DNA of 64,000 nucleotides from a virus: positions 3,513-67,512 of the IMG/VR virus record IMGVR_UViG_3300024581_003939; one strand, given 5' to 3'. Shown here one piece after another: positions 5,982 to 62,949 of this stretch (position 1 is its first letter; every line of letters begins with the position of its first letter). The notes below the pieces were generated by a model. It did not search any database and had not been told where the DNA came from. It saw nothing but the letters and a program-made list of their open reading frames with translations. Position numbers and translations under genes: made by a program.

Positions 5982-6110
5982 TTGCGTTCCTACCTTTTTG
6001 ATATTATATGCAAGTCTAGTCGATTGTTAATGTTACCTTCGCTGTATCGTTGTTTTATATTTATTAAGAAAACGGGTTATAATTTAAAAAATTACAAGGA
6101 GTATACAGTT

Positions 6111-6797
6111 ATGGAAAAAATTTATCTCTATGATGACAATATTGGATCTGTTGAATATGTACAACACATGGGAGACGATCTTACGATTGTTAATTCAGCA
6201 CGTGTAAGCTTTGGAAAGCAAAAGGAGGATCTAGATGAAAGAGATGAAAAGCTCATTAAATACCTCATCAAACATCAACACACCAGTACGCTGGAACATA
6301 ATGTTGTTACTTTTAGGTTTTGTGTTCCTCTTTTCGTTCGTAGTCAGCACCATCGCCATCGGACATGGTCCTACAATGAAATATCTCGTAGGTATACTGA
6401 TGTGAACTTACAGTTCTATTCGCCCAAAGAATTTAGGACTCAGCACAAGAGCAATCGTCAAGCAAGTAATACAGACAACCTCATCAATCCAACTGTTGCA
6501 CCGTTGTTTCTTGACACGTACTCTACTGCATCTCAAGCTATATCTGAGTGGCATACGCAGTCTCTAGATCTATTTGACAAACTTATTGAATCTGGCGTAT
6601 GCAGAGAACAAGCAAGAGGTGTTTTACCCCAGAATCTCTACACCGAGTATTACGGAACTACAAACCTCAACAACTTAATTAAGTTTATCAAGCTTAGAAC
6701 TCACGATGGTGCACAACAAGAAATTCGTGTAGTCGCTGAAGCGTGCAAAAAAATAGCAACCGACTTGTGGCCAGTTGCTATGAAACACCTAGAATAG
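6111..6797 (+). CDS. thyX: FAD-dependent thymidylate synthase
   Basis: RHRTWSYNEISRRY signature; ATG at 6111 with AAGGAG and upstream TATAAT. Confidence 0.95.
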   Translation: MEKIYLYDDNIGSVEYVQHMGDDLTIVNSARVSFGKQKEDLDERDEKLIKYLIKHQHTSTLEHNVVTFRFCVPLFVRSQHHRHRTWSYNEISRRYTDVNLQFYSPKEFRTQHKSNRQASNTDNLINPTVAPLFLDTYSTASQAISEWHTQSLDLFDKLIESGVCREQARGVLPQNLYTEYYGTTNLNNLIKFIKLRTHDGAQQEIRVVAEACKKIATDLWPVAMKHLE

Positions 6798-31004: not shown

Positions 31005-31022
31005 ATTACTAATAGTAACTAA

Positions 31023-31501: not shown

Positions 31502-31831
31502 TTAAAAAATCAATTTTTTTCCATTCATTAAAATATTTCTTTTATTAAAAGAGACAACTGCTACTGTTTTGACACCCGGTAGCTTCTTTACTAATCTAGA
31601 CATGTCTTCTAGACTCTTATATATCTCATCTGATTCAGGTAGGAACTTAATACTGAGTAGTAAAGATCCGTCACCGTCAGAGAAGCGTGCAACTTTATCT
31701 TTTTGCCCGACAACAGCAATGCCGGGAAGAATACGGATTCGAGTCATTAAGTCTGGAACATGGGTCTCGTTTTCAATTTTAAGATTAACGACAGCTGCTG
31801 CCAATTTTCTTTGTAATTTATAATCCTGCAT
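31502..31831 (-). CDS. hypothetical protein (ferredoxin-like fold suspected)
   Basis: two IRILPGI / VKKLPGV repeats. Confidence 0.55.
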   Translation of the reverse strand: MQDYKLQRKLAAAVVNLKIENETHVPDLMTRIRILPGIAVVGQKDKVARFSDGDGSLLLSIKFLPESDEIYKSLEDMSRLVKKLPGVKTVAVVSFNKRNILMNGKKLIF

Positions 31832-31861
31832 TTATATTCTCTCCCGACATTATATCTTTAA

Positions 31862-43070: not shown

Positions 43071-43750
43071 TAGACGCCTCTCAGTACTTGAATAATTTTG
43101 TCAGCTTTTGCAATACGTTTTTCAATCGTTGACCACTTAAGTGTTTTCATCATTGCACGTGTATAAGTATCTACATCTTTTAGATAATCTCTGTAGTACG
43201 AATGTTGCCATGCATCAAGAACAATAATTGGATAAGATCCAGCTGGCATATTGTTTGAGTGTAGATCCACAACAGCATTCATTAAGGTTTGTGTATACAT
43301 ATTGAGATAAGTAATTGCCCACCCACATTGTGAAGCAGCTGCACATGCCATAAAATCTTTTTGCCATTCATCAAAAGAACCAAAGTCTCTTGCAATTCTC
43401 ATATAAGCAAGTGAATCCATTTTGATTTCAGAGTGTGGATCACCAATATTTGCAAAAAATAACTCATGAAGGTAAACACCGTTCATGTTAAATGTCTCAT
43501 CAACTTTAAGTGATCTAAATTCTGAATGATTGCAATTAACATCTGTTTTGTCAACAGTGTCTAATTTTGCGCTGATCTTGTTAAAGTTTTTAATATAGCC
43601 TTGATATAACTCAACATGATTCTGAAAATTTTCATCACTTAATAAATCAACGTTAAATCTAAACTTTTTTTCTTGTGCTGAAAGCGCTTCGTTTAGTCTT
43701 AGAGTTTCTCTGATTGCTTTCTTTGCTTTTTCATTGAATAGTTCGTTCAT
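43070..43750 (-). CDS. sod: Fe/Mn superoxide dismutase with N-terminal extension
   Basis: metal ligands NH, LHELFF, DAWQHSYY; FGSFDEW; start MNELF at 43750. Confidence 0.88.
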   Translation of the reverse strand: MNELFNEKAKKAIRETLRLNEALSAQEKKFRFNVDLLSDENFQNHVELYQGYIKNFNKISAKLDTVDKTDVNCNHSEFRSLKVDETFNMNGVYLHELFFANIGDPHSEIKMDSLAYMRIARDFGSFDEWQKDFMACAAASQCGWAITYLNMYTQTLMNAVVDLHSNNMPAGSYPIIVLDAWQHSYYRDYLKDVDTYTRAMMKTLKWSTIEKRIAKADKIIQVLRGV

Positions 43751-43754
43751 ATGC

Positions 43755-43991
43755 TTACACCTGTTCGTAGTTATCAAAGTCTTCCATTTCTATTCTTAGA
43801 TAGACTTTTTTATTGCCGGGACCGTTATAATATCTATATGCAAATATAACAGGTTTGTTGTTTTTGAAAAGAATTTTTTCAATAGTATACTCAATTTTTG
43901 TCTTTTTGTGGCGAATTAATAAAGAGTCGCCTAACATTGATATGAGTTTTCCCTTCTTTTTTCTTAAACCCTTTTTTAAATTTTCTTTCAT
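43755..43991 (-). CDS. hypothetical protein
   Basis: 78-aa ORF preceded by ATATTTA. Confidence 0.55.
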   Translation of the reverse strand: MKENLKKGLRKKKGKLISMLGDSLLIRHKKTKIEYTIEKILFKNNKPVIFAYRYYNGPGNKKVYLRIEMEDFDNYEQV

Positions 43992-44996: not shown

Positions 44997-45413
44997 TTAA
45001 TCTAATTTCACAACTTTGACGCCACTATCTCTAAGAACGTTAATGCCTGACATGTCTGGTGCATATTCGTTAATAAAGAGTACTTCGTCAATCCCAGCAT
45101 TGACTATGCATTTCGCGCATACCAAACAAGGTGAATGAGTCAAATACATTTTTTTCTTTTTAGGATTGTTAAAGTCACATTTAATCAATGCATTGACTTC
45201 AGCATGTATAAAGCCGCTTTTTCCTGTTTCTAGACTGTCTCTTTGATTTGGGCCGCCTTTGTGATCTCCATTGTATCCTAAAGCTAAGACCTGTGTATTG
45301 TCTTCAGTTACAATCACAGCACCTACTTGAAATTTTTGATCAGGAGATCTTTTTGATATATCTAAAACAAAGTTCTTCCAAATACTATTCCATCCAGGGC
45401 GAATATTGTTCAT
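44997..45413 (-). CDS. dCMP deaminase
   Basis: VGAVIV, GYNG, HAEVNAL, SPCLVC. Confidence 0.9.
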   Translation of the reverse strand: MNNIRPGWNSIWKNFVLDISKRSPDQKFQVGAVIVTEDNTQVLALGYNGDHKGGPNQRDSLETGKSGFIHAEVNALIKCDFNNPKKKKMYLTHSPCLVCAKCIVNAGIDEVLFINEYAPDMSGINVLRDSGVKVVKLD

Positions 45414-46009
45414 ACAGGTTTTCTTCCGCTTTTAAGTACAATTTCACAAATATGGTCTAATCTTTCAATATGCTCGTATGCATCCCACGGATTGGATCCT
45501 ACGGCGCAAACTCCATGTCCAGCTTGAGCAACAATATCATATACTATTTTGTTGTCTTTAGTCATGTTATCGAAAGTACATATTGCCAGTTCCGGAGAGA
45601 TCACTGGAAGGACTGGAACAGTAGGGCCTACCTTACTATATCTTGAAACCTCTGGGAATTCATCAGACAGCTTCTGCATATCCCAGCCGCCATAGACAGC
45701 TGATATAATATTAGTAGGGTGCAAATGAACAACAGCTAAAGTTTTGTTGGTCGACTTTTGTAGCATCCAATGCATTTCCAATTCTCCTGAAGGGTTAACA
45801 TTTTCAGGAAATTCAATGTCTCCAAAATACTCACCTTGAATATCAGTCTTAATAATAGACTCTGGGTGAATAATTGTTTTTCTTACTCCAGAAGGTGTAA
45901 TGTACATTTTTGTTGAATTATAGCGTTTTAAAGAAATATTTCCGTCACGAGTTGTTATCCAGCCCTTTTCATAAGCTCTTCGCATTACATCGCCGATTGC
46001 TGTCAACAT
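45410..46009 (-). CDS. class II aldolase/adducin-family protein
   Basis: DGNIS, ITPSG, PSGELEMH, VVHLHP, GHGV. Confidence 0.88.
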   Translation of the reverse strand: MLTAIGDVMRRAYEKGWITTRDGNISLKRYNSTKMYITPSGVRKTIIHPESIIKTDIQGEYFGDIEFPENVNPSGELEMHWMLQKSTNKTLAVVHLHPTNIISAVYGGWDMQKLSDEFPEVSRYSKVGPTVPVLPVISPELAICTFDNMTKDNKIVYDIVAQAGHGVCAVGSNPWDAYEHIERLDHICEIVLKSGRKPV

Positions 46010-46851
46010 GGTTGATCCTTGTCAAAAAGATCTTCTATTTTAAAATCGCCAGGAAGTGTAAAGCCGGCCGCTTTTTTGTGACCGCCGCCGCCATATCTTT
46101 TTGCAATTTCAGAAACATCAATATGCTCATGAAATGCTCTTAAGCTAACTTTGATATTTTTATCATTATGATCATAATACCAGATCAAAGCAAAGTCACA
46201 GTCTGGAGATAGTTTAGCACCAATCTCACTCATCCAATGCGATGAATTAACAACCATAACATGCTTGCCGTTAATTTTTCTATTAGCGGCTTTATCGCAT
46301 ACTTTTTTGACAACTGTTTTTGAATATGCTAAAATATAAGATCCGCGTTTAACTGCATCATCAAAAACGCTATCATCTTCAAATTTTTCAAACTCTTCAA
46401 AATCAAAAGGAACCATGTCAAAAGCAGCACTAAATTCTTTTGAATAGGGTAGCTCCCATTTCCACAAATCTCTATCTGTAATATATTGAACAAACTTAGG
46501 TGATTCTTTCCCTGGATGGAAAAACTCCCATGCCATTGTTGCTCCGCTTTTGCTCATGTCAAAAATTGTATTTGATATGTCGTGAAGTTCTACGACAGCT
46601 GACTTGTGATGATCGATAATTACCAAGTCTTTTGCTTCTGATATCATTTTCTTTGTTACTTCATTACTGAATGAAAAGTCTAGTATCACCACAGTCTTGT
46701 CTTTTACATCTGGTGGTTCTTGTCCATGCTTACAAGGATAATACTCAGCTCTGTTACCAAGCAGCTTCCAAGCAGCATATGCGGATCCGAATCCATCTGT
46801 GCAATTTGCATGATAAATAACACAGTTAACACTTGAAGGGTCTAACATCAT
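46003..46851 (-). CDS. DHH/DHHA1 phosphoesterase
   Basis: YHANCTDG, LDFS, IDHH, GGGHKKAAG. Confidence 0.88.
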   Translation of the reverse strand: MMLDPSSVNCVIYHANCTDGFGSAYAAWKLLGNRAEYYPCKHGQEPPDVKDKTVVILDFSFSNEVTKKMISEAKDLVIIDHHKSAVVELHDISNTIFDMSKSGATMAWEFFHPGKESPKFVQYITDRDLWKWELPYSKEFSAAFDMVPFDFEEFEKFEDDSVFDDAVKRGSYILAYSKTVVKKVCDKAANRKINGKHVMVVNSSHWMSEIGAKLSPDCDFALIWYYDHNDKNIKVSLRAFHEHIDVSEIAKRYGGGGHKKAAGFTLPGDFKIEDLFDKDQPC

Positions 46852-46862
46852 TTTCTCCTGAA

Positions 46863-47453
46863 TTAGTCTCTCATATAATTATGGTGTAATTGACATCTTG
46901 GCTCGTAAAGTTCAGCCCCTCCTACTTGGATTTGATCTAATCGATTATCAGATTTAAAACTTTCTACGTGTTTTACAGAACTTTTTTTACAGGTGTAGCC
47001 GGCATCTTTTTGACAGACACTGCAAACCGCTGTACACTTTTCAATTTTTGTACAATAAGGCATTAGATTTTTTACTTCTTCAAACGCTTCCCCTGTAAAA
47101 GACAAATCAATTGAAGCGACAACGACATTATAGCCTTTTTTAAAAAGCTTGATGCATGCCGCGGCACCACCCTCAATTAGAAATAACTCATCGATTATTA
47201 CAGTATCGATATTGATGTCTGTTTCTAGATCAACTATCTTATTGATAATCTCATCACCTGTTGAGACTAGGTGTGCAGGAAGCTTGTTAAAGTTATGTGT
47301 TACAATCTCTCCGACATTTGTGTATCTGTCATCCATTCTTGACTTAAAAGAAATGATATTTTGTTTTTGATATTGTCTTTTGTCTGCTTCCATCAATAGG
47401 CGGGTTGTTTTAGAACTAAACATAGGCCCGGTATATAAAATAAGTTCAGTCAT
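46863..47453 (-). CDS. tdk: thymidine kinase
   Basis: GPMFSSKT, IIDE, CSVC...YEPRC. Confidence 0.92.
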   Translation of the reverse strand: MTELILYTGPMFSSKTTRLLMEADKRQYQKQNIISFKSRMDDRYTNVGEIVTHNFNKLPAHLVSTGDEIINKIVDLETDINIDTVIIDELFLIEGGAAACIKLFKKGYNVVVASIDLSFTGEAFEEVKNLMPYCTKIEKCTAVCSVCQKDAGYTCKKSSVKHVESFKSDNRLDQIQVGGAELYEPRCQLHHNYMRD

Positions 47454-48451
47454 TTAAGCCCCCACCATTTATATGTTTTTTCCATTCCTTCCCAAAATGT
47501 TACTACTGGCTTATAACCAAAATCATTAAAGGCTTTGCTGCAGTCTGCCAATGTATGCTTAACATCACCCGGCCGCTCTGGCGCATTTTTGATCTTAACT
47601 TTATCGCCAAATTCTTCTTTTAGGTGGTCTAGAATCTGATTATTTGTTACGCTACTACCGCATGCAATATTATAGCATTCTCCTAAGAACTTTTTATTAG
47701 AATTTGCAGCTAAAATATTTGCTGAAACTACATTGTCTATATGACACATATCTCTTGACTGTTCCCCATCGCCATCAGATCTACACTCTAGACCGTTTGT
47801 AATTGCATGACACCATGCTGACACTGCTGTTGAATAAGGACTGTCTCCATATTGTCCTTGCCCAAAAACATTAAAGTATCTTAAACAGACAATATCTAAA
47901 TCATAGAGGCCTGCACACACCTTTGCAAAATCCTCAATAGCTGATTTTTGCCAAGCATAGGGAGAGAGAGGTGACTTATTTTGACGTTCAGTTGTTGGAA
48001 GGGATCCAGCGTCTCCATAGACTGAAGAAGAAGATGCCCAGACAATTCTGTCAACAGAACCACGTGCTGCCTCAAAAAGTCTAACAGTTTTTGAAATATT
48101 GATATCAGTTGTATGCCATGGCTCCTCAACAGAATAGCTTACGCGAGGTAAGGCAGCCTGATGAAAGACGACGTCATAATTTCCTTGATATACAGCGTTC
48201 AAGACATTGTCATCAGCAAAATCATCTTGAATTACTAACACTTCATCTTGATGCCTTTCGTGATCTTGCATTTTATAAGCTGTATAAAATGTCCCGTTGG
48301 CTAAAACTCTAAATTTTAAATCATTTAAAAGCTCTAAATGACCGTTAGACATGTCATCAACAATATCTACTTGCCACCCTTGTTTTACCAGTTCTTTTGC
48401 GAGATTGCTTCCAATAAATCCACAACCGCCTGTTACTAATGCTTTTTTCAT
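47450..48451 (-). CDS. NAD-dependent nucleotide-sugar epimerase/dehydratase (extended SDR)
   Basis: TGGCGFIG, HQAA, SSSSVYG, YAWQK, RYFNVFG. Confidence 0.92.
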   Translation of the reverse strand: MKKALVTGGCGFIGSNLAKELVKQGWQVDIVDDMSNGHLELLNDLKFRVLANGTFYTAYKMQDHERHQDEVLVIQDDFADDNVLNAVYQGNYDVVFHQAALPRVSYSVEEPWHTTDINISKTVRLFEAARGSVDRIVWASSSSVYGDAGSLPTTERQNKSPLSPYAWQKSAIEDFAKVCAGLYDLDIVCLRYFNVFGQGQYGDSPYSTAVSAWCHAITNGLECRSDGDGEQSRDMCHIDNVVSANILAANSNKKFLGECYNIACGSSVTNNQILDHLKEEFGDKVKIKNAPERPGDVKHTLADCSKAFNDFGYKPVVTFWEGMEKTYKWWGLK

Positions 48452-48531: not shown

Positions 48532-49086
48532 TTACAGCACAACTTCAATGTCGCATTCATCAATGTCTAAACTTTCAGCTAGTCGACTTTTTCCTCCAAG
48601 CCCTTCAATTTCCATTAAAAACCAAAAAGAAACAGAATTAGCATTCAACGACTGGACAATGTTTCCAACTGCCTCAGCTGTCCCACCTGTTGCAAGAACA
48701 TCATCAACAATCAATACATTGTCTCCTCGAGTAATATCATCTTTGTGAATTTCAATTTTATCATTTCCGTATTCTAGACCATAAGATTGGTACACAGTTT
48801 CTCTAGGCAGCTTTCCTTCTTTCCTGGCAAGAACTAGGGGTAAACCAGTTTCGTATGCAAGAAGTGTTCCTAAAATAAAACCTCGCGACTCTATTGCAAC
48901 AATTTTATTAAAATTGCGTCCGTCATTTTTAATCCATCTAGCGTGAGAAGAAATAATATTTTTTAGTTCAGACTGATCTCTTAAAACAGGGGTAATGTCC
49001 TTAAACAGGATTCCCTGTTTTGGAAAGTCAGGTACATCAATAATTAACTTCTTTATTCTTTCTAGCATAAATTTATATTCGCTCAT
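48532..49086 (-). CDS. apt: adenine phosphoribosyltransferase
   Basis: ESRGF, RKEGKLP, PRPP loop VDDVLATGGT. Confidence 0.9.
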   Translation of the reverse strand: MSEYKFMLERIKKLIIDVPDFPKQGILFKDITPVLRDQSELKNIISSHARWIKNDGRNFNKIVAIESRGFILGTLLAYETGLPLVLARKEGKLPRETVYQSYGLEYGNDKIEIHKDDITRGDNVLIVDDVLATGGTAEAVGNIVQSLNANSVSFWFLMEIEGLGGKSRLAESLDIDECDIEVVL

Positions 49087-50172: not shown

Positions 50173-50393
50173 TTTTTCTTTTTTCTTCCTCGTTTTTTAG
50201 GTGGGGGTTTAACCTCTTTTTTCTCAGGTATCTTTATATGATTCTGATGTATCGTTAGTTGGAGCACGAAGTCTTTTCCTCCCTTTTCAGTTGATTTAAA
50301 AGTTACCCAACCTTCTGAGTCGCAAGAAACGACTTCGTGCTTTTTAAATCTCTTGCCAATTTTAACAGAGATCTTGTCACCCTTAGTAATCAT
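50169..50393 (-). CDS. small basic hypothetical protein
   Basis: MITKGDKIS...; AT-hook-like PKKRGRK tail. Confidence 0.55.
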   Translation of the reverse strand: MITKGDKISVKIGKRFKKHEVVSCDSEGWVTFKSTEKGGKDFVLQLTIHQNHIKIPEKKEVKPPPKKRGRKKKK

Positions 50394-51360
50394 TTTTATT
50401 TTCAAGTGTTTTTAAGAATGAAACAATACTATCTACTTCTTTCTGGCTTAAATCTTTTCCAAGCTGAATTGATGCCATAATTCGAACTGCATCTTCAATT
50501 GTTTCTACACTTCCGTCGTGAAAATATGGACCGGTATTTGTGATGTTTCGTAAAGAAGGAACCTTAAATACTTCTTTGTCTGCTGGATTACCTGTTACGT
50601 TAAATCTACCTAAGTCAATATGACCACCATCAGTTCGATAAGGTTTTAAAACACCTAGTTTTTGAAAGCTATTACCTCCAAATAGCGCGCCGTTGTGACA
50701 CGAACCACATCCAGTGGAGACAAATTTCTCATATCCTTCAACTTCTTCTTTTGTCAGATACGTTTTCCCATTTAGCCATGCATCAAATCGATCAGAGGTT
50801 ACCAAAGTTCTTTCAAATGCAGCAATTGCGTTCGCAATATTATCAAATGTAATAGGGTTTTCTTGATCAGGAAACGCTTTTTCAAATAAAGGTGGGTAAG
50901 ATTCGATACTTGAAATGGATGATTCTGCATCTTCTTTTGTTTTTGTACCCATTTCTCCTGCAGCAAGAATTGGCCCTTTTGCTTGTTCTTCTAGAGTAGG
51001 TGCACGGCCGTCCCAAAACTGTGCTACATGATATCCTGAATTAAAGGTTGAAGGTGCATTCCGTTCTACAGGTTTACCATATGCCCCTATCGAAACTTTA
51101 AGTGGTTCAGCACCGTGATGACTTAATAAGTGACATGATTCACACGACTGAGTTTTATTTCCACTCAAAGCTTTTTCTGAGTAAAGCAAACGTCCTAGGT
51201 CTACCATCTCCTTAGTATCTTTTTTAATTTTTAAATCGTCAATCGTTCCAAACATCGACTGAGCTTGAGCTTTAATCTCAATTTCTTTGTTCTCGTCTTC
51301 TGACGTAGTTTTTAGTTCTGGCTGCTGATTACATGCCATCATTAATAACGCGATATACAT
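50383..51360 (-). CDS. di-haem cytochrome c peroxidase (CcpA/MauG family), lipoprotein
   Basis: two CxxCH motifs (CESCH, CGSCH), RNAPST, QFWDGRA, VPSLRN, PYFHDG; lipobox LLMMA-C. Confidence 0.92.
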   Translation of the reverse strand: MYIALLMMACNQQPELKTTSEDENKEIEIKAQAQSMFGTIDDLKIKKDTKEMVDLGRLLYSEKALSGNKTQSCESCHLLSHHGAEPLKVSIGAYGKPVERNAPSTFNSGYHVAQFWDGRAPTLEEQAKGPILAAGEMGTKTKEDAESSISSIESYPPLFEKAFPDQENPITFDNIANAIAAFERTLVTSDRFDAWLNGKTYLTKEEVEGYEKFVSTGCGSCHNGALFGGNSFQKLGVLKPYRTDGGHIDLGRFNVTGNPADKEVFKVPSLRNITNTGPYFHDGSVETIEDAVRIMASIQLGKDLSQKEVDSIVSFLKTLENKNDY

Positions 51361-51369: not shown

Positions 51370-51789
51370 TTAGTTACCTGTACTTCCATAACCGCCCGAT
51401 CCTCTTTCTGTCGGTGTCAGTTCATCTACTTCATTAAATTCAATCTTAGGATATGGCATAATAATTAATTGCCCAATCCTATCTCCAATTTGATATTCAT
51501 TTCTGTTAGCTGATAGAGAAAATTTCATCATGATCTCACCTCTATAGCCAGAATCGATAACTCCAACACAATTAGTTAGCATTTGCCCTGTCTTATAAAC
51601 TGAAGATCGAGGAAATAATAACCCGACATGCCAACGAGGAATCTCAACGGCCAATCCAGTGTGATATGTAAAACAACCATACTGGTCAGTTGTTACGTCC
51701 ACCGCGGTCAAATCCAATCCGGCATCCCCCTTTTTAGCGTATTTAGGGATAACTGCATCGGGGTGCATTTTCTTAATTTTAACTTTCAT
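51370..51789 (-). CDS. dut: trimeric dUTPase
   Basis: AGLDL, PRSS, GVIDSGYRGE, RIGQL, RGSGGYGSTG. Confidence 0.95.
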   Translation of the reverse strand: MKVKIKKMHPDAVIPKYAKKGDAGLDLTAVDVTTDQYGCFTYHTGLAVEIPRWHVGLLFPRSSVYKTGQMLTNCVGVIDSGYRGEIMMKFSLSANRNEYQIGDRIGQLIIMPYPKIEFNEVDELTPTERGSGGYGSTGN

Positions 51790-52105
51790 TATCTTCCTCT
51801 GTATCTTTGATTGTTTTAAAAGCTTCGTCATATAGTTTTTTCGTTTTAATAAAATTTGACAATGCTTTTCTTTCTTTCTTTTTGACTGTATTAAAATATT
51901 TTACAGCTTCGTTTTGTATGTCTTCCAGTTCTCCTGAGGGAACTTTTATAGTTTTTATATAGCTTTGTAATCCATCATATGAGATAATAGTGATCTTAAA
52001 TAGTTCGTCTTTATAAATTGACATTCTCAGTTTGATTCTTTCTACATCAGCATCTTTGTAAACGTAGTACTTTGCTGAACCTATCGATCGATACATTTCC
52101 CACAT
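51779..52105 (-). CDS. hypothetical protein
   Basis: MWEMYRSIG after GGGG RBS. Confidence 0.55.
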   Translation of the reverse strand: MWEMYRSIGSAKYYVYKDADVERIKLRMSIYKDELFKITIISYDGLQSYIKTIKVPSGELEDIQNEAVKYFNTVKKKERKALSNFIKTKKLYDEAFKTIKDTEEDNES

Positions 52106-52365: not shown

Positions 52366-53277
52366 TTAGATTATATGTCCTGAATTAATTTTAATTTCAA
52401 TTTTGCAATAGTGCCCTAGTCGATCACACTTAAAGTAACGAAAAACCTCAGAAGACAAATGCTTTATGAAGTTTAGGTCATATTTTAAAGTTTCTTTTAC
52501 ATTTGATGATCTTAAAAAGAATTTTGCGTCAAGGTGATTGTCTCTAATTAAAAAATGAGCAAGACTAATACAAGAATCATCAGTGTAAATAAATCTTCTA
52601 GACTCCAAGCTTTCTTTTCTTCCATACTCATTTTTACCTTTCATTTCTAGACTGATTTTTTCAAAGACTCTGTCTTGAATATATTCATAATATTCTTTTT
52701 CTTTTTCGTATAGTAAAAGGTCTTTGTCAACATCAGAAAAGTCACCTGTATCATAATGAACAAAATTAATACCTAATACTTCATTATTTTCTTTCGTACT
52801 GGCCAAAATTGTAGATAGAGAGCTGATATCAATCATTCTGTTATTAGTAACACTATTATAATGTTTCACCAAAGACTTGACCAGCTGTTCATCCACGATC
52901 TTTCTGACAACTGTTACGTTTGGATAATTTTGGAATTCATTTGCAGCCTCTTCAAATAAATCATATAAAGATTTAAGACTAGTGATATTTTGAATTGGAT
53001 CACCGCGTTTTTGAAAACGATCAACAATGATCTTCCAATCAGGCAAACAAATAATTAGCTGATTGTTTAAATTGTGCAATTCACGCTTAAGTTGTTCAAC
53101 ATGATTAAAAGTATCTCTACCGTAGTATCTTGCGTGAATGAGCATTGACAGTGCTGACCGGTCCTGGATGTTCCATTTATAACCTGATTCTTTATGAATC
53201 ATCTCGTATAATGTTGTTTTACCAGAGCAGTCAGGACCTTCAATAAAAATATAATCAATGGGTGTGCTGTGCGACAT
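52366..53277 (-). CDS. dNMP (thymidylate-like) kinase fused to a minimal thymidylate-synthase/dCMP-hydroxymethylase-fold domain
   Basis: P-loop EGPDCSGKTT and DRS; C-terminal SRR..SC...HFLIRDNHL...RSSNV..LKYD...NSGH. Confidence 0.75.
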   Translation of the reverse strand: MSHSTPIDYIFIEGPDCSGKTTLYEMIHKESGYKWNIQDRSALSMLIHARYYGRDTFNHVEQLKRELHNLNNQLIICLPDWKIIVDRFQKRGDPIQNITSLKSLYDLFEEAANEFQNYPNVTVVRKIVDEQLVKSLVKHYNSVTNNRMIDISSLSTILASTKENNEVLGINFVHYDTGDFSDVDKDLLLYEKEKEYYEYIQDRVFEKISLEMKGKNEYGRKESLESRRFIYTDDSCISLAHFLIRDNHLDAKFFLRSSNVKETLKYDLNFIKHLSSEVFRYFKCDRLGHYCKIEIKINSGHII

Positions 53278-53281
53278 TAGT

Positions 53282-53326
53282 TACCTCGTTTAAGAATATT
53301 ATACTTAGACAAGGTATTCTTTACAT
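53282..53326 (-). promoter_or_regulatory. promoter ATGTAA-N17-TATAAT with RBS-covering hairpin
   Basis: -35 at 53321-53326, -10 at 53298-53303 in the loop; arms 53304-53316 and 53282-53294. Confidence 0.72.
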
Positions 53327-55873: not shown

Positions 55874-58800
55874 TTAATCTGTAACTAAAGGTCTAATTTT
55901 TCTTGAACTAGTGCTAGCACCCCAGTTAGGATCATTAGACGCTTCTGTCAACCAGATTGAATATGGCACCATCGATTCAGGTTTTTCACCCCACATTCTT
56001 AACCAACCTGTGTTATTTTCGTAATCAGTAATCTTAAGTCGATAAAAAGTCTTTTTGTTTTTTGTTGTCTTTTTAATCATGTCAACAATACAACACCAGG
56101 CGATACATTTTTCACCAGGAAGCATATTAAGAACGGATTTTACTCCTGCTGATCGAATCTTTTCCATCATTTCGTCAGGAAAGGCCAGATCATCACGAGT
56201 TGCTGAGCAAAGATCTTGATACATTGTGAGTTTATCAATTCGACCCCAGTCTTCTGTACCTCTTGTTTCATCTATTAAAACTGGTAATATTTCAGGGGCG
56301 TTTTCTTTCTTTGCTTTACGGGCTGTCATACCCCATTTACTTTTCTTGAGATTGGAATAGTTGTCAATAATGATATTATAGAGCTGCTTATGATTATCAA
56401 TTGTACCATCCCACATTTCTTGTAATCCATTAAATGCTTCTACTTGACACAGAGACGCAAACCCTGTTTTATTAAGTTTGGAATGTCGCCATTTGCCATC
56501 ATCATCAAACAACATGCTTGCAACTGATTCATATGGTCGATTTTGCATAATTTCAACAACTGCTGTTTTTCCTACCCCTTTAATTGAAGTTAAAGGAGGG
56601 ATAAATGCCTGTTTCTTTTCAGACCACTGCCAGTAAGTACCTGATTCATTAACATCAGGAAGAGCCACACGATAACCCATTTCTTTAATTTCGGCAATTG
56701 CTTTTGATAGTGCATTTGGATTATTGTTTTCAGACTCAAGAATTGTGCCTAGCCAGTCAGTTTCATAGTATGTGTGTAACCAAGCAGCGTAATAAGAGCC
56801 GATAGCATAAGCAATCGCATGCGATTTATTAAAGCCGTAAACTGAGAAGAATTCGATCCGTTCCCACAACTCTTGTGAAACATGTTCAGGTACACCATTG
56901 ATTTCTTTTGCGCCGGTCACAAATTTAATGCGAGCTTCTTCACGTTCATCGCCTTTTTTGCCCATAGTATCAAGAGACTTCTTAACCAGCGTCTTGCGAA
57001 GTTTATCGGATTCAGCAGGCGTGAAACCTCCTAGCTTCTGCGCAAGAAGCATGAACTGCTCTTGGAATGTTACGTGGCCAAAGGTTGGTCCAAGAATATC
57101 CTTGATGATTGGATGTTCATAGTGAATTTCATCAGCACGAAGTTTGTCTTTTACATATTTCTTATGCACATTTGCACGAAGAGGACCAGGACGATAGATT
57201 GCAGTTAGCGCTGCCAATTCTTCAATATTAGTTGGTTTGGCATCTTCACAGAAACGACGAGCACCTTCAGCTGTAAACTGAAATACGCCTACTTTTCGAC
57301 GCTGATGATAAACATGCTTCCAAACTTCTTCATCATCTTGATCGACATATCGACAGTTAAGATGCTTATCAAACCAGTCGCGTATCTCTAAGAATGTAGG
57401 CTCTTTACCTGTTTCACGTGTTAAGATCCGCTTAATACAGTTTTCAACATCTTTTAATAGTGTTAGGCCAAGAAAGTCAAACTTAATAAAGCCGTTATCT
57501 TCGAGATTACGGAAGTTCATACCTTCAGTCCAGGGTGTTTGTAATTCACCACGCACGCCAATAATAGGCATTGATTGTTCTAGGTCACGAGGAGGACCAA
57601 TAATAACCCCACCAGCGTGTCGACCAATCGAGCGGTTCTGCATGAATAGAGCTTCGATATGATCCTTTACTTTTGGATATTTTTCCATGAATTCACGATA
57701 TCCTTTAGAGAATTGCATGCAATCTTCATGCTTAAGAACGAATACAGACTTCTCAGTATTTTCATCACGTGCTTGTGACATAACCTCATCTTGTAGTGGG
57801 CCGGTCATTTTATTTACTTCACCAAAGTCGACACCATAAAACTTGGCGATATCCTTAACCAAGGACTTGAGTTTAAGCGTGTTAAAGTTGGATACAGGAA
57901 TTACTGCTTCGTCACCATACAGCTCTCTAGCTGCATTGATTAGTGCATCACGGTCACCAGCATCAGAGTCGATATCGGGCCACGAAGTACGATGGCGACC
58001 TAGGAAGCGCTCCCATAGCAAGTCGTATTTAAGAGGATCGACCTGCGTAATACCTAACAAGAAGTTTACAAGTGAACCACCACCAGAACCACGTGCTGCG
58101 CCAAATAGAGTATGATCAGCAGCTTTATGGAATACCTCATTCATTACTAAGAAGTAGTTTTCGAATCCGAGGAATTTGATGTCTTCGAGTTCTGCTTTTG
58201 TTCTTTCAACATACTCAGGTTTCGTATGAAGTCCTTCCTTAACGAGTGCCTCTTTAACTTTTTGCGCAAGCTGTTGAAAAGCAGATTGGTTAGGGTTGTT
58301 GAAATCGGGAAGCTTAACAGAAGTATCAATCCAACAGTCTTCGCACTTCTCCCATGCAATATCGTGTGTAATTTCAATAGATTTTTTAATCGTTTCTTCG
58401 AAACCTTCATATGTGTCTTTGTATTCTTCATAATGTCGTGTAAATTCATCCCACATCTGACCTGCATTTTTTGGATACAGTTCACATTTAAGATCTTCAA
58501 ACTCCGGTAACGGACTTGGGTCGTTACCCATCCACCCTAATTTTTTATAAAGTTCTCTGGCCTCCCATTTATCAGGTGAGTAATAGTGTGAGTCTGGTGT
58601 GGAAATAAGTTGTAAACCAGTTTGTTGCGCATGACGTAACATATGATGATTTACAAGATGTTGTTGTTTAAGTCGATTAAATTGCAATTCCAAATAGAAA
58701 TTGTCTTCACCAACTGCATCAACAAAACGTTCAGATAAGTATGACAGTTCTTGCTGAATTTGCTCGTCAGAAAGCTTTAAAGCATTTCCTCGCATAATGC

Positions 58801-59392
58801 GATTCGAAAAAATACCGCCTAGACAAGCTGTGGAAACATTAAGCCCTTTACCGTATTGTTTAAGAAGATCGAAGTCAATGCGAGGATATCTATAAAAGCC
58901 GTCAGTATAGGCACGTTTAATTAGAGTAAACAAGTTACCCAAACCTTCACGGTTTTGTGCAGTAACCACCAGATGATAACGTCGTTTCCATTCGTCTTTT
59001 CCTAGCTCGAATGTTTTAGTTTCATCTTCGTTTTCAATAATATGACCGCCTTCCTCTTCTTCTTTAATCGCTTTTTGCTTTGCTGCAGCTCGGTCGATCT
59101 TGGCTTGTTCGTAGTCTGATTTCCAATCTTTAAGTGAGGGGACAAAATAGAATTCACATCCGTAAATTTGACGGAATTTCTTGCCTTGCTTTTTTACTTT
59201 TTGTGCGTGCTTATAGGCGTGAGCAAGACCGCTACCGTTACCATGATCAGTTAATGCCCAGGCATCCATGCCGTTTTCTAGTACGAAGTCGATGTGATCA
59301 GACGGATAACCTAATCCATCAAAAACGGAAAAGCCTGTGTGTCCGTGAAAGCCAACAAATCGATCGGGTGGTGTAAGTAATTTGATATCCAT
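55874..59392 (-). CDS. dnaE: DNA polymerase III alpha subunit
   Basis: PHP domain (HGHT..S..DG, TDHG), GRGSGGGS-like ARGSGGGS, catalytic PDIDSD, KFDFLGL, FNKSH, HhH and OB domains. Confidence 0.96.
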   Translation of the reverse strand: MDIKLLTPPDRFVGFHGHTGFSVFDGLGYPSDHIDFVLENGMDAWALTDHGNGSGLAHAYKHAQKVKKQGKKFRQIYGCEFYFVPSLKDWKSDYEQAKIDRAAAKQKAIKEEEEGGHIIENEDETKTFELGKDEWKRRYHLVVTAQNREGLGNLFTLIKRAYTDGFYRYPRIDFDLLKQYGKGLNVSTACLGGIFSNRIMRGNALKLSDEQIQQELSYLSERFVDAVGEDNFYLELQFNRLKQQHLVNHHMLRHAQQTGLQLISTPDSHYYSPDKWEARELYKKLGWMGNDPSPLPEFEDLKCELYPKNAGQMWDEFTRHYEEYKDTYEGFEETIKKSIEITHDIAWEKCEDCWIDTSVKLPDFNNPNQSAFQQLAQKVKEALVKEGLHTKPEYVERTKAELEDIKFLGFENYFLVMNEVFHKAADHTLFGAARGSGGGSLVNFLLGITQVDPLKYDLLWERFLGRHRTSWPDIDSDAGDRDALINAARELYGDEAVIPVSNFNTLKLKSLVKDIAKFYGVDFGEVNKMTGPLQDEVMSQARDENTEKSVFVLKHEDCMQFSKGYREFMEKYPKVKDHIEALFMQNRSIGRHAGGVIIGPPRDLEQSMPIIGVRGELQTPWTEGMNFRNLEDNGFIKFDFLGLTLLKDVENCIKRILTRETGKEPTFLEIRDWFDKHLNCRYVDQDDEEVWKHVYHQRRKVGVFQFTAEGARRFCEDAKPTNIEELAALTAIYRPGPLRANVHKKYVKDKLRADEIHYEHPIIKDILGPTFGHVTFQEQFMLLAQKLGGFTPAESDKLRKTLVKKSLDTMGKKGDEREEARIKFVTGAKEINGVPEHVSQELWERIEFFSVYGFNKSHAIAYAIGSYYAAWLHTYYETDWLGTILESENNNPNALSKAIAEIKEMGYRVALPDVNESGTYWQWSEKKQAFIPPLTSIKGVGKTAVVEIMQNRPYESVASMLFDDDGKWRHSKLNKTGFASLCQVEAFNGLQEMWDGTIDNHKQLYNIIIDNYSNLKKSKWGMTARKAKKENAPEILPVLIDETRGTEDWGRIDKLTMYQDLCSATRDDLAFPDEMMEKIRSAGVKSVLNMLPGEKCIAWCCIVDMIKKTTKNKKTFYRLKITDYENNTGWLRMWGEKPESMVPYSIWLTEASNDPNWGASTSSRKIRPLVTD

Positions 59393-61766: not shown

Positions 61767-61957
61767 TTTTCTACCTCTTGTTCTAGTGTTATAACTGACG
61801 TTGCGCCGTCATAAACAATTGCTTTTATTTTTCCTTTAGTCAGTGCTTGTATCTCTTTAAAGCCGTATCTATTATAACAGCTAAGGACTATAGAGTATAC
61901 TTTTTCACCTCTATAGTCCAAAGTTGATATCAAGTCACCCGCCTTTATTTCGGTCAT
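61763..61957 (-). CDS. small SH3-like protein
   Basis: IKAGDLIS. Confidence 0.5.
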   Translation of the reverse strand: MTEIKAGDLISTLDYRGEKVYSIVLSCYNRYGFKEIQALTKGKIKAIVYDGATSVITLEQEVEK

Positions 61958-62949
61958 TAAAAGAATTCCGTCAAATCGATATTCTTTTCTTGTGCTTCTT
62001 CAAGATAACGAAGTGGATTATACCCTTCTGACTTTAAAATACTTTCGTATGACATGCGTATACCTTCTACGAGACCTATCTTAGGATACCAGCCAGTATA
62101 CTCTCTGACTTTTCTACCACTTAAGATATGATTACCCATATATTCTGTTTGGGGTAGCCATTCAATTGTATCTGCGAAACTCTGGCCGCATACTTTATCC
62201 ATTAATTCTACTATTTCTCCTGTCACAAGTGGTGTTTCTGCCGCGATATTAAAGTCGTTGTTCCAACATTTGTCTTCTTTGATGCAGGAAAATACACCAT
62301 CACAATAGTCATTGACATGTAGATAATCTTTAATTTTTGTTGGATCCAAGAACATTTGAATCTTTTTTACGCCGTTTAATTTTGCATAAATAGTTTTTGC
62401 GATCAGAGAATTCATATCACCTTCACCGCCGTATGCAAAAAGAGGTCGAATAATCATCCACTTACTACTATGAGACTTAACTACTTCTTCAGCTGCTAGC
62501 TTTTGACAACCGTAAAAAGTATGAGGACCACGATCAGAGTCTTCTTCGATAGCAGTCTCTTGATACTTGGGTGTATCATAAATAACAGTCGTGCCCATAT
62601 AACATACAGGAATTCCGCATTTTTTTGCAGCACGACAGATATTGAAAGTGCCTTGAACATTTGTCAATGTTGATTCTTTTGAATTAAGCGCTACGACATC
62701 AGTTCCTACAACGGCTGCATTATGAATAACGACATCGATATTGTTGACTCTGAAAAAAGATGCCCAAGCCTCTTCTGAGTTTCGATGAATGCAGGGCTCG
62801 CCTTTTTCTGTTGTAAATTGTGAAACAAAAGCGGCATCTTCATTTATCTCGTGCACCCCAGAAATAAAGTTAAGACCATTTAGTTTGGCACGCTTCGCAA
62901 GATTAGTTCCAATAAATCCTCGCTCGCCAGTGATAAAAACATTTTTCAT
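61957..62949 (-). CDS. second NAD-dependent epimerase/dehydratase (SDR)
   Basis: TGERGFIG, HNAA, YGCQK, IRP..AYG. Confidence 0.88.
   Translation of the reverse strand: MKNVFITGERGFIGTNLAKRAKLNGLNFISGVHEINEDAAFVSQFTTEKGEPCIHRNSEEAWASFFRVNNIDVVIHNAAVVGTDVVALNSKESTLTNVQGTFNICRAAKKCGIPVCYMGTTVIYDTPKYQETAIEEDSDRGPHTFYGCQKLAAEEVVKSHSSKWMIIRPLFAYGGEGDMNSLIAKTIYAKLNGVKKIQMFLDPTKIKDYLHVNDYCDGVFSCIKEDKCWNNDFNIAAETPLVTGEIVELMDKVCGQSFADTIEWLPQTEYMGNHILSGRKVREYTGWYPKIGLVEGIRMSYESILKSEGYNPLRYLEEAQEKNIDLTEFF

What the first reader, a model, noticed from the sequence alone, without database searches (positions are those of the whole stretch)
52366..53277. Kinase fused to a minimal thymidylate-synthase fold with the dCMP-type Asp: candidate cytosine-modification enzyme
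Seen: a P-loop dNMP kinase (EGPDCSGKTT, DRS) joined to SRRFIYTDDSCISLAHFLIRDNHLDAKFFLRSSNVKETLKYDLNF...INSGHII. This aligns by eye to the ThyA core (SRR, catalytic Cys, QF.VRDGKL, RSxD, His). The position of E. coli Asn177 is Asp (RSSNVKETLKYD) and Asp169 is Asn. Known: Asp at this position confers dCMP preference, as in T4 dCMP hydroxymethylase. Much of the folate-binding region appears absent, and dTMP is already supplied by ThyX and Tdk. Inferred: the enzyme makes and phosphorylates a modified dCMP (hydroxy-, hydroxymethyl- or another C5 group) for incorporation into DNA, possibly with a non-folate donor.
Basis: partly seen in the sequence, partly recalled or inferred. Interest (0 to 1): 0.85.

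Follow-up and report, generated by a model that had tools for sequence, protein, structure and literature searches.

The report
Kinase fused to minimal dCMP-modifying domain
An uncultured marine giant phage encodes one protein joining a small nucleotide kinase to a stripped-down thymidylate-synthase-like domain built to bind dCMP, so it probably supplies a modified cytosine nucleotide (perhaps 5-hydroxy-dCMP) for the phage DNA, though sequence alone cannot settle the product.

Summary
ORF 52366-53277 (-) encodes 303 aa. Residues 1-145 are a YorR/thymidylate-kinase-like P-loop kinase with all catalytic motifs. Residues 146-303 are a 158-aa thymidylate-synthase (TS) fold. Alone, this domain models at pLDDT 96. 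Only TS-family structures match it well, led by the flavin-dependent dCMP hydroxylase AfhB of phage HY126.

Profile alignment fixes the register: SRR = R126/R127, C236 = C146, R256-S257 = R166-S167, N259 = D169, D267 = N177, H301 = H207. N177D plus D169N is the published signature of 5-hydroxy-dCMP synthases.

About 80-100 residues of a normal TS are missing, including the cofactor-side helices and the C-terminal tail, and Pfam does not detect the domain. Across 80 viral relatives Asp267 is invariant and Cys236 is kept in 78. Position 259 flips N/D/E at least 11 times, often swapping with an acid at 262, so the hydroxylase signature is insecure here.

The gene is a core member of a DnaE-fusion-SDR-Tdk-DHH-dCMP deaminase module. 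An unfused kinase plus Asp-type TS pair exists in pelagiphage HTVC119P.

Best reading: a bifunctional maker and phosphorylator of a C5-modified dCMP. This scan noted the same fusion family in two other genomes. It is a new variant of a known kind.

The parts
52366..53277 (-). Whole ORF, 303 aa plus stop: kinase fused to a minimal TS-fold domain
   Evidence: 720 homologues at 90% clustering and 238 clusters at 50%, nearly all about 300 aa full-length fusions. AF2 model of the full protein has pLDDT 89.7 and pTM 0.84.
52843..53277 (-). N-terminal P-loop nucleotide kinase domain (residues 1-145), YorR/thymidylate-kinase-like
   Evidence: phrog_761 thymidylate kinase, E 4.6e-11. Family profile against PDB: YorR 2axp/3kb2 E 3e-12, Aquifex TMK E 1.8e-5. 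VIA: 2axp_A Z 13.2, rmsd 2.8, 140 aligned. D16, G19, K20, D39, R40, R87, R91 and D93 are invariant or 79/80 in 80 relatives.
53212..53238 (-). Walker A / P-loop, residues 14-22 (GPDCSGKTT)
   Evidence: Seen directly in the sequence. G19 and K20 are 80/80.
52369..52842 (-). C-terminal minimal thymidylate-synthase-fold domain (residues 146-303)
   Evidence: Domain-only AF2 model has pLDDT 96.1. Foldseek PDB top hits are 9iqu (E 3.5e-7) and 9iqc, then ThyA, T4 dCH and MilA. In VIA-wide only TS-family chains exceed Z 8 (9iqc_A Z 11.6, 142/158 aligned, rmsd 2.8) and the next fold scores Z 5.4. hhalign to the 5hodCMP-synthase family gives probability 94%.
52594..52602 (-). S226-R227-R228, equivalent of ThyA R126/R127 (phosphate-binding arginines donated across the dimer)
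   Evidence: hhalign register. R227 is 79/80 and R228 is 78/80. In the predicted homodimer, residues 82/83 of one copy (= R227/R228) touch 111/112 (= R256/S257) of the other.
52570..52572 (-). Cys236, equivalent of the catalytic nucleophile (Ec C146, T4 C148, RB69 C163)
   Evidence: Conserved in 78/80 relatives.
52501..52512 (-). R256-S257-S258-N259. R/S correspond to R166/S167. N259 sits at the D169 position, where D169N is the published 5hodCMP-synthase signature
   Evidence: The family shows N 41, D 29, E 10, at least 11 changes on the tree, and co-variation with an acid at 262, which is E262 in this protein.
52477..52479 (-). Asp267 at the Ec N177 position (base-specificity residue; Asp indicates cytosine)
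   Evidence: Invariant, 80/80. Role of N177D as described in PMC13326640 section 24.
52375..52377 (-). His301, equivalent of Ec H207 on the last core strand
   Evidence: hhalign to RB69 gp48 and T4 gp42. Conserved in 78/80.
55874..59392 (-). DnaE-type DNA polymerase III alpha, the invariable upstream neighbour of the fusion
   Evidence: Pfam PHP, DNA_pol3_alpha, finger and HHH_6 domains. Present in 81/81 loci and immediately upstream of the fusion in 41/80.
44997..48451 (-). Conserved downstream module: SDR NDP-sugar epimerase/dehydratase (47450-48451), Tdk (46863-47453), DHH phosphoesterase (46003-46851), class II aldolase (45410-46009), dCMP deaminase (44997-45413)
   Evidence: Pfam and NCBIfam. 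Among 81 loci: SDR in 61, Tdk in 67, DHH in 47, dCMP deaminase in 65. The typical order is DnaE-fusion-SDR-(unknown)-Tdk-DHH-deaminase.
51370..51831 (-). Trimeric dUTPase/DCD-family protein, three genes downstream of the fusion
   Evidence: Pfam dUTPase E 5.9e-23, DCD E 2.3e-8.
5982..6797 (+). ThyX (flavin-dependent thymidylate synthase): dTMP supply does not depend on the fusion
   Evidence: Pfam Thy1 E 4.8e-47. ThyX also neighbours the fusion in 37 loci.

Best explanation
The gene encodes a bifunctional, probably dimeric enzyme of deoxycytidylate metabolism.

The C-terminal 158-aa domain is a pared-down thymidylate-synthase fold. It keeps the dNMP phosphate clamp: SRR from the partner subunit plus R256/S257. 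It also keeps the Cys236 nucleophile, which attacks C6 of the pyrimidine, and an invariant Asp267 that selects cytosine. By the mechanism shared across this superfamily, Cys addition makes C5 nucleophilic so that a group can be installed there.

The most likely product is 5-hydroxy-dCMP, made with a reduced flavin and O2 as in AfhB and RB69 gp48. I put that at about 35-40%. The wider statement, some C5-modified dCMP, I put at about 55-60%.

The N-terminal YorR/TMK-like kinase then phosphorylates the modified dNMP to the diphosphate. Host Ndk would complete the triphosphate, and the adjacent DnaE-type polymerase would incorporate it.

Shown here: fold, register, residue conservation, fusion conservation, synteny, and a predicted TS-type dimer.
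Inferred: catalysis, cofactor, product, the order kinase-after-synthase, and incorporation into DNA.
For: - Fold: only TS-family structures match the isolated domain. AfhB, the dCMP hydroxylase, is first in both Foldseek and VIA-align, and RB69-type 'gp42' of phage Acj9 ranks second among viral models.
- Homology and register.
- Purifying selection on the chemistry residues in 80 relatives: D267 80/80, C236 78/80, R227 79/80, R228 78/80, R256/S257 78/80, H301 78/80. All kinase motif residues are 79-80/80.
- N177D and D169N are both present in this protein. Lee et al. (PMC13326640, sections 24, 28) showed that every D169N TS homologue they tested made 5hodC.
- Known 5hodC clusters carry a YorR/TMK-like 'nucleotide kinase' beside the synthase: DLP3 gp78, RB69 gp45, RL38J1 gp214 (PMC13326640, Table 1). 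The fusion joins these two parts.
- The same pair occurs unfused, with overlapping genes, in pelagiphage HTVC119P. gp15 is a kinase (29% identity, E 4e-14). gp16 is an Asp-type TS homologue (hhalign E 6.9e-6, 28% identity).
- Predicted homodimer: ipSAE 0.81 against a best control of 0.00. That mark was reached by 20 of 30 solved one-chain pairs and 1 of 23 single chains. Runs agree in at least 97% of contacts and partner pLDDT is at least 90. SRR of one copy touches R256/S257 of the other.
- dTMP is supplied separately by ThyX and Tdk, and no canonical ThyA exists in 12 long relatives.
- The closest long relative (79% identity) carries a cluster of GT4 ('GT4-conflict' PF20706) and GT2 glycosyltransferases with UDP-glucose dehydrogenase.
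Against: - Position 259 is N/D/E and changes at least 11 times on the family tree. In this protein's clade, N259 goes with D/E262 and D259 with N262. A carboxylate is therefore usually retained nearby, unlike RB69-type enzymes, which have Val at the +3 position.
- The segment that is invariant in bona fide 5hodCMP synthases (RB69 gp48 residues about 64-131) and the ThyA helices carrying E58, W80 and W83 have no counterpart. Neither does the C-terminal tail. Where any cofactor would bind is unknown.
- No Arg was found at the R21 position.
- No glycosyltransferase lies on this contig (which is only 22% of a genome). GT1 genes occur in just 5 of 12 long relatives, and one complete relative has none.
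- No MazG-type dCTPase was found in 13 records.
- The dimer pass may reflect memory of solved TS dimers.
- No biochemical or DNA-composition data exist for any family member.
Confidence: 0.55

Rival explanations
1. A folate-dependent minimal dCMP hydroxymethylase (T4 gp42-like, making 5hm-dCMP) or dCMP methylase fused to its kinase. In this reading the family members with Asp or Glu at 259 show the ancestral chemistry, and N259/E262 is an equivalent arrangement.
For: T4 gp42 is the best single-sequence hhalign match (E 4.5e-6). Half the family keeps D/E at the D169 position, and the 259/262 swap keeps a carboxylate nearby. The unfused pelagiphage homologue gp16 has D169 retained together with N177D.
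Against: The parts of ThyA and dCH that hold the folate are absent: the W80/W83 region and the C-terminal tail. The top structural neighbours are the flavin-dependent hydroxylases. This protein itself has Asn at 259.
Confidence: 0.15
2. The TS-like domain is a non-catalytic dCMP-binding, dimerisation or regulatory module of a phage dNMP kinase. In this reading the protein simply phosphorylates canonical dNMPs.
For: The domain has lost most of the cofactor side of the fold. Two divergent relatives (L082, L083) have lost Cys, the Arg-Ser pair and His yet keep the fusion and the kinase motifs. SPbeta YorR-type kinases exist without any TS partner.
Against: Cys236, His301, the SRR motif and the R256-S257 pair are each kept in 78-79 of 80 relatives despite identities down to about 30%. 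That is not expected for a mere binding module. The unfused pair in HTVC119P has a full-size TS homologue.
Confidence: 0.12
3. The reaction order is reversed. The kinase is a deoxynucleoside kinase (dC to dCMP) that feeds salvaged deoxycytidine into the TS-like domain. The modified dNMP is then phosphorylated by a host or other phage kinase.
For: Structural hits include the deoxyadenosine and deoxycytidine kinases 8puu, 2jas and 2jat at Z 10-11, with 21-23% identity. JGI annotates some members as deoxyadenosine/deoxycytidine kinase. The module is rich in salvage enzymes: Tdk, APRT, and nucleoside deoxyribosyltransferase and NT5C in relatives.
Against: The best sequence matches are thymidylate kinases (phrog_761, Aquifex TMK, weak PF02223 hits on the fusion in relatives). 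The motif is D-R-S rather than the E-R-S of dNKs (this point is from my own knowledge). No other TMK-like NMP kinase was found in two complete relatives.
Confidence: 0.1
4. The minimal domain performs cofactor-independent chemistry through the Cys-C6 adduct. Possibilities include C5-H exchange or hydrolytic C4 deamination, or a reaction with an unrecognised small electrophile.
For: Loss of the cofactor-side elements. Tolerance of N/D/E at 259.
Against: A zinc dCMP deaminase is encoded in 65 of 81 loci, which makes a second deaminase redundant. E193, Y196, Y197 and N216 are nearly invariant outside the dNMP site, which suggests a further ligand is bound.
Confidence: 0.06

Closest known systems
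Flavin-dependent 5-hydroxy-dCMP synthases: HY126 AfhB (PDB 9iqu, 9iqc), RB69 gp48, DLP3 gp80, RL38J1 gp216 (Lee et al., NAR 2026, PMC13326640; He et al., Nat Chem Biol 2026, cited there, not readable here)
   Same: - TS fold, and the top structural neighbour.
- Catalytic Cys, SRR and RS phosphate clamp.
- N177D (Asp267) and D169N (Asn259).
- Leu at the Q165 position, where the dCMP-type homologues have Met and ThyA has Gln.
- A YorR/TMK-like kinase as genomic partner.
   Different: - 158 aa instead of 234-238 aa.
- Lacks the block that is invariant in those enzymes (RB69 residues about 64-131) and has a 16-residue deletion before the Cys.
- Not detected by Pfam PF00303, whereas all RB69-type proteins are.
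- Covalently fused to the kinase.
- The D169 position is variable in the family and paired with an acid at +3.
- No arabinose or GT cluster next to it.
T4 gp42 deoxycytidylate hydroxymethylase (PDB 1b5d, 6a9a)
   Same: TS fold, Cys nucleophile, and Asp at the N177 position. Best single-sequence profile match (E 4.5e-6). The phage also has a separate dCMP deaminase, as T4 does.
   Different: T4 gp42 keeps D169 (D171) and the folate-binding elements and is 246 aa. It is not fused to a kinase; T4 uses gp1 dNMP kinase instead.
Pelagibacter phage HTVC119P gp15 (kinase) plus gp16 (annotated thymidylate synthase), MH598806
   Same: The same two modules, adjacent with overlapping reading frames. gp16 has N177D and an almost identical FLIRDN(Q/H)L strand. 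gp15 is 29% identical to the kinase domain.
   Different: The two are unfused. gp16 is full-size (282 aa) and keeps Asp at the 169 position. It comes from a 38-kb podovirus, and its function is untested.
Bacillus SPbeta YorR (PDB 2axp/3kb2) and bacterial thymidylate kinases
   Same: Best sequence and structure match for residues 1-145, with the P-loop, the D-R-x motif and an RxxxRG LID-like segment.
   Different: YorR is a stand-alone protein of unknown substrate with no TS-like domain.
Stand-alone mini TS-like proteins in metagenomes (AFDB A0A0F9MSN6, 187 aa; ESM Atlas viral clusters of 144-183 aa)
   Same: Similar reduced TS fold (TM 0.74 by query). Mostly viral.
   Different: Not fused to a kinase, uncharacterised, and their relationship to the fusion was not analysed further.

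Membership tests
Thymidylate synthase / dCMP hydroxymethylase superfamily (ThyA fold) | Three-dimensional fold | tested here: met
   Only TS-family chains score above Z 8 (8.4-11.6) for the isolated domain, and the next fold scores Z 5.4. Foldseek probability is 1.00.
Thymidylate synthase / dCMP hydroxymethylase superfamily (ThyA fold) | Catalytic cysteine at the C146 position | tested here: met
   C236 aligns to C146 (E. coli), C148 (T4) and C163 (RB69). Conserved in 78/80.
Thymidylate synthase / dCMP hydroxymethylase superfamily (ThyA fold) | Phosphate clamp: R126'/R127' from the partner subunit plus R166/S167, in an obligate dimer | tested here: met
   SRR 226-228 and R256/S257 are conserved. 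The predicted dimer scores 0.81 against a best control of 0.00, with SRR touching the partner's R256/S257. This is a prediction only and may be recalled from solved TS dimers.
Thymidylate synthase / dCMP hydroxymethylase superfamily (ThyA fold) | Recognition by the Pfam family model PF00303 | tested here: not met
   No PF00303 hit for the protein, even at E up to 10. None in the contig and none in 12 related records.
Thymidylate synthase / dCMP hydroxymethylase superfamily (ThyA fold) | Cofactor-side elements: R21 loop, helix B with E58, W80/W83, and the C-terminal tail closing on folate | tested here: not met
   The domain ends two residues after H301 (= H207). Only one long helix (191-213) lies between strand 166-176 and SRR. 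There is no Arg in the 161-166 loop. Y196/Y197 or Y218 may stand in for Y94, but this is unresolved (low-confidence alignment).
5-hydroxy-dCMP synthase (AfhB / RB69 gp48 type) | Asp at the N177 position (dCMP specificity) | tested here: met
   D267, 80/80.
5-hydroxy-dCMP synthase (AfhB / RB69 gp48 type) | Asn at the D169 position, proposed as diagnostic by Lee et al. | tested here: inconclusive
   This protein has N259. The family shows N 41, D 29, E 10, with at least 11 changes on the tree and an N259/D-E262 to D259/N262 swap. In RB69-type enzymes Asn is invariant and the +3 residue is Val.
5-hydroxy-dCMP synthase (AfhB / RB69 gp48 type) | Acidic residue at the L143 position | tested here: inconclusive
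   The segment is shortened by 16 residues. D233/D234 precede C236 (D233 in 40/80, D234 in 57/80), but equivalence to L143 cannot be fixed.
5-hydroxy-dCMP synthase (AfhB / RB69 gp48 type) | Family-invariant central block (RB69 gp48 residues about 64-131) | tested here: not met
   The confident hhalign alignment covers only RB69 residues 133-227. The forced global alignment of the rest has no confidence. The length deficit is about 80 residues.
5-hydroxy-dCMP synthase (AfhB / RB69 gp48 type) | Flavin binding and O2-dependent formation of 5hodCMP | not testable with these tools
   Needs protein purification, spectroscopy and LC-MS.
T4-type dCMP hydroxymethylase | Asp at the D169 position and a folate-binding site | tested here: not met
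   N259 in this protein, and the folate-side elements are absent.
YorR / thymidylate-kinase-like P-loop NMP kinases | Walker A motif, D-R-x motif, LID arginines and fold | tested here: met
   D16, G19, K20, D39, R40, R87, R91 and D93 are conserved. Substrate was not tested.

The most novel reading that the evidence does not exclude
[quoted passage not shown] It has dispensed with the classical folate/flavin-binding half and uses a different donor or a differently bound cofactor, possibly with help from the fused kinase domain. On this reading a large, globally distributed lineage of marine jumbo phages with DnaE-type polymerases carries a cytosine modification, or several that switch with the 259/262 residues, that has not yet been described in ocean viromes.
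Probability: 0.25. Interest if true: 0.85.

Novelty: new variant of a known kind. Interest (0 to 1): 0.62.

Why it matters
TS-superfamily enzymes are the entry point of almost all known phage pyrimidine hypermodifications. The 5-hydroxycytosine branch was described only in 2025-2026, and the published survey searched with Pfam models, which miss this domain. That survey would therefore have overlooked this family.

The family is large: 238 clusters at 50% identity. It is a core gene beside the replicative polymerase in uncultured marine phages of about 200-300 kb. If it is active, modified cytosine would be common in an abundant marine virus group. That would affect restriction and CRISPR evasion, and also how such DNA is sequenced and quantified.

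The 158-aa domain would also define the minimal catalytic core of the TS fold. Its natural fusion to the YorR-type kinase would assign a role to the so far unassigned 'nucleotide kinase' of the RB69, DLP3 and RL38J1 clusters.

Tried and rejected
- Pfam, NCBIfam and PHROGs give no TS annotation for the protein.
- tblastn of the whole protein against 50,697 cultured-phage records found nothing at E 1e-5. The TS domain alone gives only E 0.6 hits, to Enterococcus phage thymidylate synthases.
- GT1, GT1_4 and GT2 searches of the window's own 72-kb contig were negative. This is uninformative because the contig is about 22% of a genome.
- A MazG-type dCTPase was not found in 13 records. T4 gp56-like or dUTPase-like dCTPases were not excluded.
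- Forced global hhalign of the N-terminal half of the domain to RB69 gp48 gave a low-confidence alignment that disagrees with the structural ranges, so I do not use it for residue equivalences.
- P0376 looked like a full-size relative, but it is a chimera or mis-call with an LpxB-like N-terminus.
- He et al. 2026 (the AfhB structure paper) and the supplements of Lee et al. are not held. The flavin-contact residues of AfhB could therefore not be mapped.
- No link was seen between the residue at 259 and presence of GT genes in 12 long relatives.
- The tools return no model coordinates, so pocket geometry and kinase-TS domain contacts could not be examined.
Full report
**What is there**

The minus-strand ORF 52366-53277 encodes 303 residues. 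It has a GAGGT ribosome-binding site 5 nt before the ATG and a TATAAT-like element about 20 nt further upstream. The window is part of a 72-kb IMG/VR viral contig that CheckV rates about 22% complete, which implies a phage genome of roughly 300 kb.

**N-terminal domain**

- Residues 1-145 hit the PHROG thymidylate-kinase family (E 4.6e-11) and generic P-loop Pfam families.
- A profile of diverse family members matches the SPbeta prophage protein YorR (2axp/3kb2) at E 3e-12 and Aquifex thymidylate kinase at E 1.8e-5.
- In the AF2 model of the whole protein (pLDDT 89.7, pTM 0.84), residues 8-155 align to YorR with Z 13.2, rmsd 2.8 and 140 residues. Thymidylate kinases and deoxynucleoside kinases follow at Z about 10-11.
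- Walker A (G19, K20), D39-R40 and the LID-like R87/R91/D93 are invariant or 79/80 in 80 viral relatives.

I conclude the kinase is active.

**C-terminal domain**

Pfam and NCBIfam see nothing here. Modelled alone with a 29-sequence alignment, residues 146-303 give pLDDT 96.1.

- Foldseek against the PDB returns the HY126 dCMP hydroxylase AfhB first (9iqu E 3.5e-7; 9iqc E 1.3e-6). ThyA, T4 dCMP hydroxymethylase and MilA follow.
- The Foldseek-independent VIA-align search of 48,161 chains finds seven chains above Z 8, all from the TS family. 9iqc_A scores Z 11.6 with 142 of 158 residues at rmsd 2.8. ThyA scores 10.0-10.7, MilA 9.4 and T4 dCH 8.4. The next fold drops to Z 5.4.
- Among viral models, RB69-type 'gp42' of phage Acj9 ranks second, after an unnamed 235-aa viral protein.
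- Sequence profiles agree. The domain family against the RB69-gp48 family gives hhalign probability 94%, E 1.2e-7 over 79 columns. Single sequences give E 4.5e-6 (T4 gp42), 1.1e-4 (RB69 gp48) and 1.4e-4 (E. coli ThyA), all in one register.

The register is S226-R227-R228 = R126/R127 region, C236 = C146, R256-S257 = R166-S167, N259 = D169, D267 = N177 and H301 = H207.

**What is missing**

The domain has 158 residues, against 264 (E. coli ThyA), 246 (T4 gp42) and 234-238 (AfhB, RB69 gp48).

- Its secondary structure is helix, strand, one long helix, then the four core strands with helix J.
- There is an 11-residue (versus E. coli) or 16-residue (versus RB69) deletion between SRR and the Cys.
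- It has no counterpart for the helix B-F region, which in ThyA carries E58, W80 and W83 and in RB69-type enzymes is an invariant block.
- Nothing follows the His strand.

Small stand-alone TS-like proteins of 144-187 aa do exist in metagenomes and viruses, so the mini-fold is not unique to this fusion.

**Comparison with the literature**

Lee et al. (NAR 2026, PMC13326640) showed that TS homologues of RB69, DLP3, RL38J1 and nine further viruses convert dCMP to 5-hydroxy-dCMP. The oxygen comes from O2 and a flavin is loosely bound. They proposed N177D plus D169N as the signature, with D169N as the diagnostic residue. The AfhB structures that top my fold searches come from the companion study of He et al., which I could not read.

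The window's protein has both substitutions. In addition, Table 1 of Lee et al. lists a YorR/TMK-like 'nucleotide kinase' next to the synthase in all three model phages. The fusion joins exactly these two parts. Their survey relied on Pfam HMMs, which do not detect this domain, so this family would have escaped it.

**Family and conservation**

- The protein has 720 relatives at 90% clustering, almost all about 303 aa, from marine metagenomes.
- There are 238 clusters at 50% identity, reaching down to about 27% identity, mostly full-length.
- In 80 IMG/VR loci, D267 is 80/80, R245 is 80/80, C236 is 78/80, R256/S257 are 78/80, H301 is 78/80, R227 is 79/80 and R228 is 78/80. E193, Y196, Y197 and N216 are 76-78/80.
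- Two divergent members (L082, L083) have lost Cys, the Arg-Ser pair and His.

Position 259 is not fixed: N 41, D 29, E 10. On a maximum-likelihood tree the label changes at least 11 times, sometimes between sister sequences. Within the mixed clade it co-varies with position 262, one helical turn on. N259 goes with D/E262 and D259 with N262. In the close clade the counts are 21 N/D, 3 N/E, 2 D/N and 1 N/N, and the window's protein is N259/E262. A basal clade of 18 has Asn with no nearby acid and a Trp at 265.

I read this as a warning. In this family the D169N rule cannot be applied mechanically. Either a carboxylate can be supplied from either position, or the chemistry switches repeatedly.

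**Quaternary structure**

Two copies of the domain are predicted to pair with ipSAE 0.81, against a best control of 0.00. That mark was reached by 20 of 30 proteins solved as one-chain pairs and 1 of 23 solved as single chains. The runs agree in at least 97% of contacts and partner pLDDT is at least 90. R227/R228 of one copy touch R256/S257 of the other, which is the composite phosphate site of TS enzymes. Because TS dimers are solved, this shows likeness rather than proof.

**Genomic context**

- The fusion belongs to a conserved module. A DnaE-type polymerase occurs in 81 of 81 loci and is immediately upstream of the fusion in 41 of 80.
- An SDR NDP-sugar epimerase/dehydratase (61 loci, often two copies), Tdk (67), a DHH phosphoesterase (47) and dCMP deaminase (65) follow downstream. 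Nucleoside deoxyribosyltransferase (41), ThyX (37), NT5C and GMP reductase occur in subsets.
- In the window an 810-aa protein separates DnaE from the fusion. Two small ORFs (82 and 119 aa), dUTPase, a cytochrome c peroxidase, two further unassigned ORFs and APRT are inserted before the SDR.
- No canonical ThyA exists in 12 long relatives, and ThyX and Tdk supply dTMP.
- No other TMK-like kinase appears in two complete relatives.
- Glycosyltransferases are absent from this contig fragment.
- The closest long relative (79% identical fusion, 236 kb) has a distant cluster with three GT4 enzymes (two matching the 'GT4-conflict' family), two GT2s and UDP-glucose dehydrogenase.
- Only 5 of 12 long relatives have GT1 genes, and one complete genome has none, so glycosylation is not a universal companion.
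- No MazG-type dCTPase was found.

**An unfused counterpart**

tblastn with the kinase domain finds Pelagibacter podophage HTVC119P gp15 (29% identity, pairwise E 4e-14). Its reading frame overlaps gp16, annotated as thymidylate synthase. gp16 is a full-size TS homologue with Asp at the N177 position, Asp at 169, and a strand almost identical to the fusion's. hhalign to the mini-domain family gives E 6.9e-6 and 28% identity. This supports a functional coupling of the two modules across unrelated marine phages.

**Interpretation**

The evidence supports a catalytically competent, dimeric, cytosine-specific TS-type active site coupled to an active NMP-type kinase, in a nucleotide-supply module next to the replicative polymerase. 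The most economical reading is that the protein makes a C5-modified dCMP and phosphorylates it.

I regard 5-hydroxy-dCMP as the leading candidate, at roughly 35-40%. The nearest structures and both signature residues point there. The missing cofactor half, the labile 259/262 pair and the lack of obligatory glycosylation or dCTPase genes keep other products open, including folate-dependent hydroxymethylation. A non-catalytic role also remains possible.

**Relation to other notes of this scan**

The scan has already recorded the same fusion family in two other genomes, with similar verdicts. My tests were run independently. They add the 259/262 co-variation, the tree count, the dimer prediction, the synteny statistics and the pelagiphage split pair.

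**Verdict**

This is a new variant of a known kind: a TS-superfamily dCMP-modifying enzyme, here minimal and fused to a kinase. Interest is moderate to high.

Noticed in passing
L085:2995-4279 (Pelagibacter phage HTVC119P gp15-gp16): A cultured SAR11 podophage has a YorR-like kinase whose reading frame overlaps a full-size TS homologue with Asp at the N177 position (dCMP-type) and Asp at 169. This suggests a so far unreported cytosine modification in pelagiphages.
   Followed up: partly
window 52492-52503 (residues 259-262) and loci L004-L083: Positions 259 and 262 of the mini TS domain co-vary like a charge swap: N259 with D/E262, against D259 with N262. A basal clade has N259 with no nearby acid and Trp at 265.
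   Followed up: partly
L082 and L083 (IMG/VR contigs of 240 and 211 kb): These two relatives keep the fusion and the kinase motifs. They have lost the Cys, the Arg-Ser pair and the His of the TS-like domain while keeping the Asp, so the domain is apparently inactivated.
   Followed up: no
L084:6438-14811 (G001, closest long relative): A cluster of three GT4 glycosyltransferases (two matching PF20706 'GT4-conflict'), two GT2s, UDP-glucose dehydrogenase and a PD-(D/E)XK nuclease. It lies about 130 kb from the fusion gene.
   Followed up: partly
window 50383-51360 (-): The phage encodes a di-haem cytochrome c peroxidase (CCP_MauG, E 8.7e-51). A superoxide-dismutase-like protein lies at 43070-43777. 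This is an unusual oxidative-stress gene set for a phage.
   Followed up: no
window 30128-33475 (-): A sigma-70-like factor (regions 1.2-3, and only the start of region 4), Hsp20 and a GroEL-type chaperonin are encoded in a row. DnaJ occurs in relatives (cluster 20).
   Followed up: no
window 17966-19239 (-) and 48532-49086 (-): Auxiliary metabolic genes: a cysteine synthase-like PLP enzyme, a NUDIX hydrolase and an adenine phosphoribosyltransferase that scores above the NCBIfam equivalog cut-off.
   Followed up: no
window 47450-48451 and 61957-62949 (-): Two SDR NDP-sugar epimerase/dehydratase paralogues. One lies immediately downstream of the fusion in most related loci. Its substrate is unknown, and it could link the module to an NDP-sugar or to a redox step.
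   Followed up: partly
window 53283-53303 (-): A TATAAT-like element (53298-53303) and a GAGGT ribosome-binding site (53283-53287) lie directly upstream of the fusion's ATG. Promoter function was not tested.
   Followed up: no
protein P0376: A database protein joins an LpxB-like N-terminus to the last 120 residues of the mini TS domain. It is probably an assembly or gene-calling chimera.
   Followed up: no
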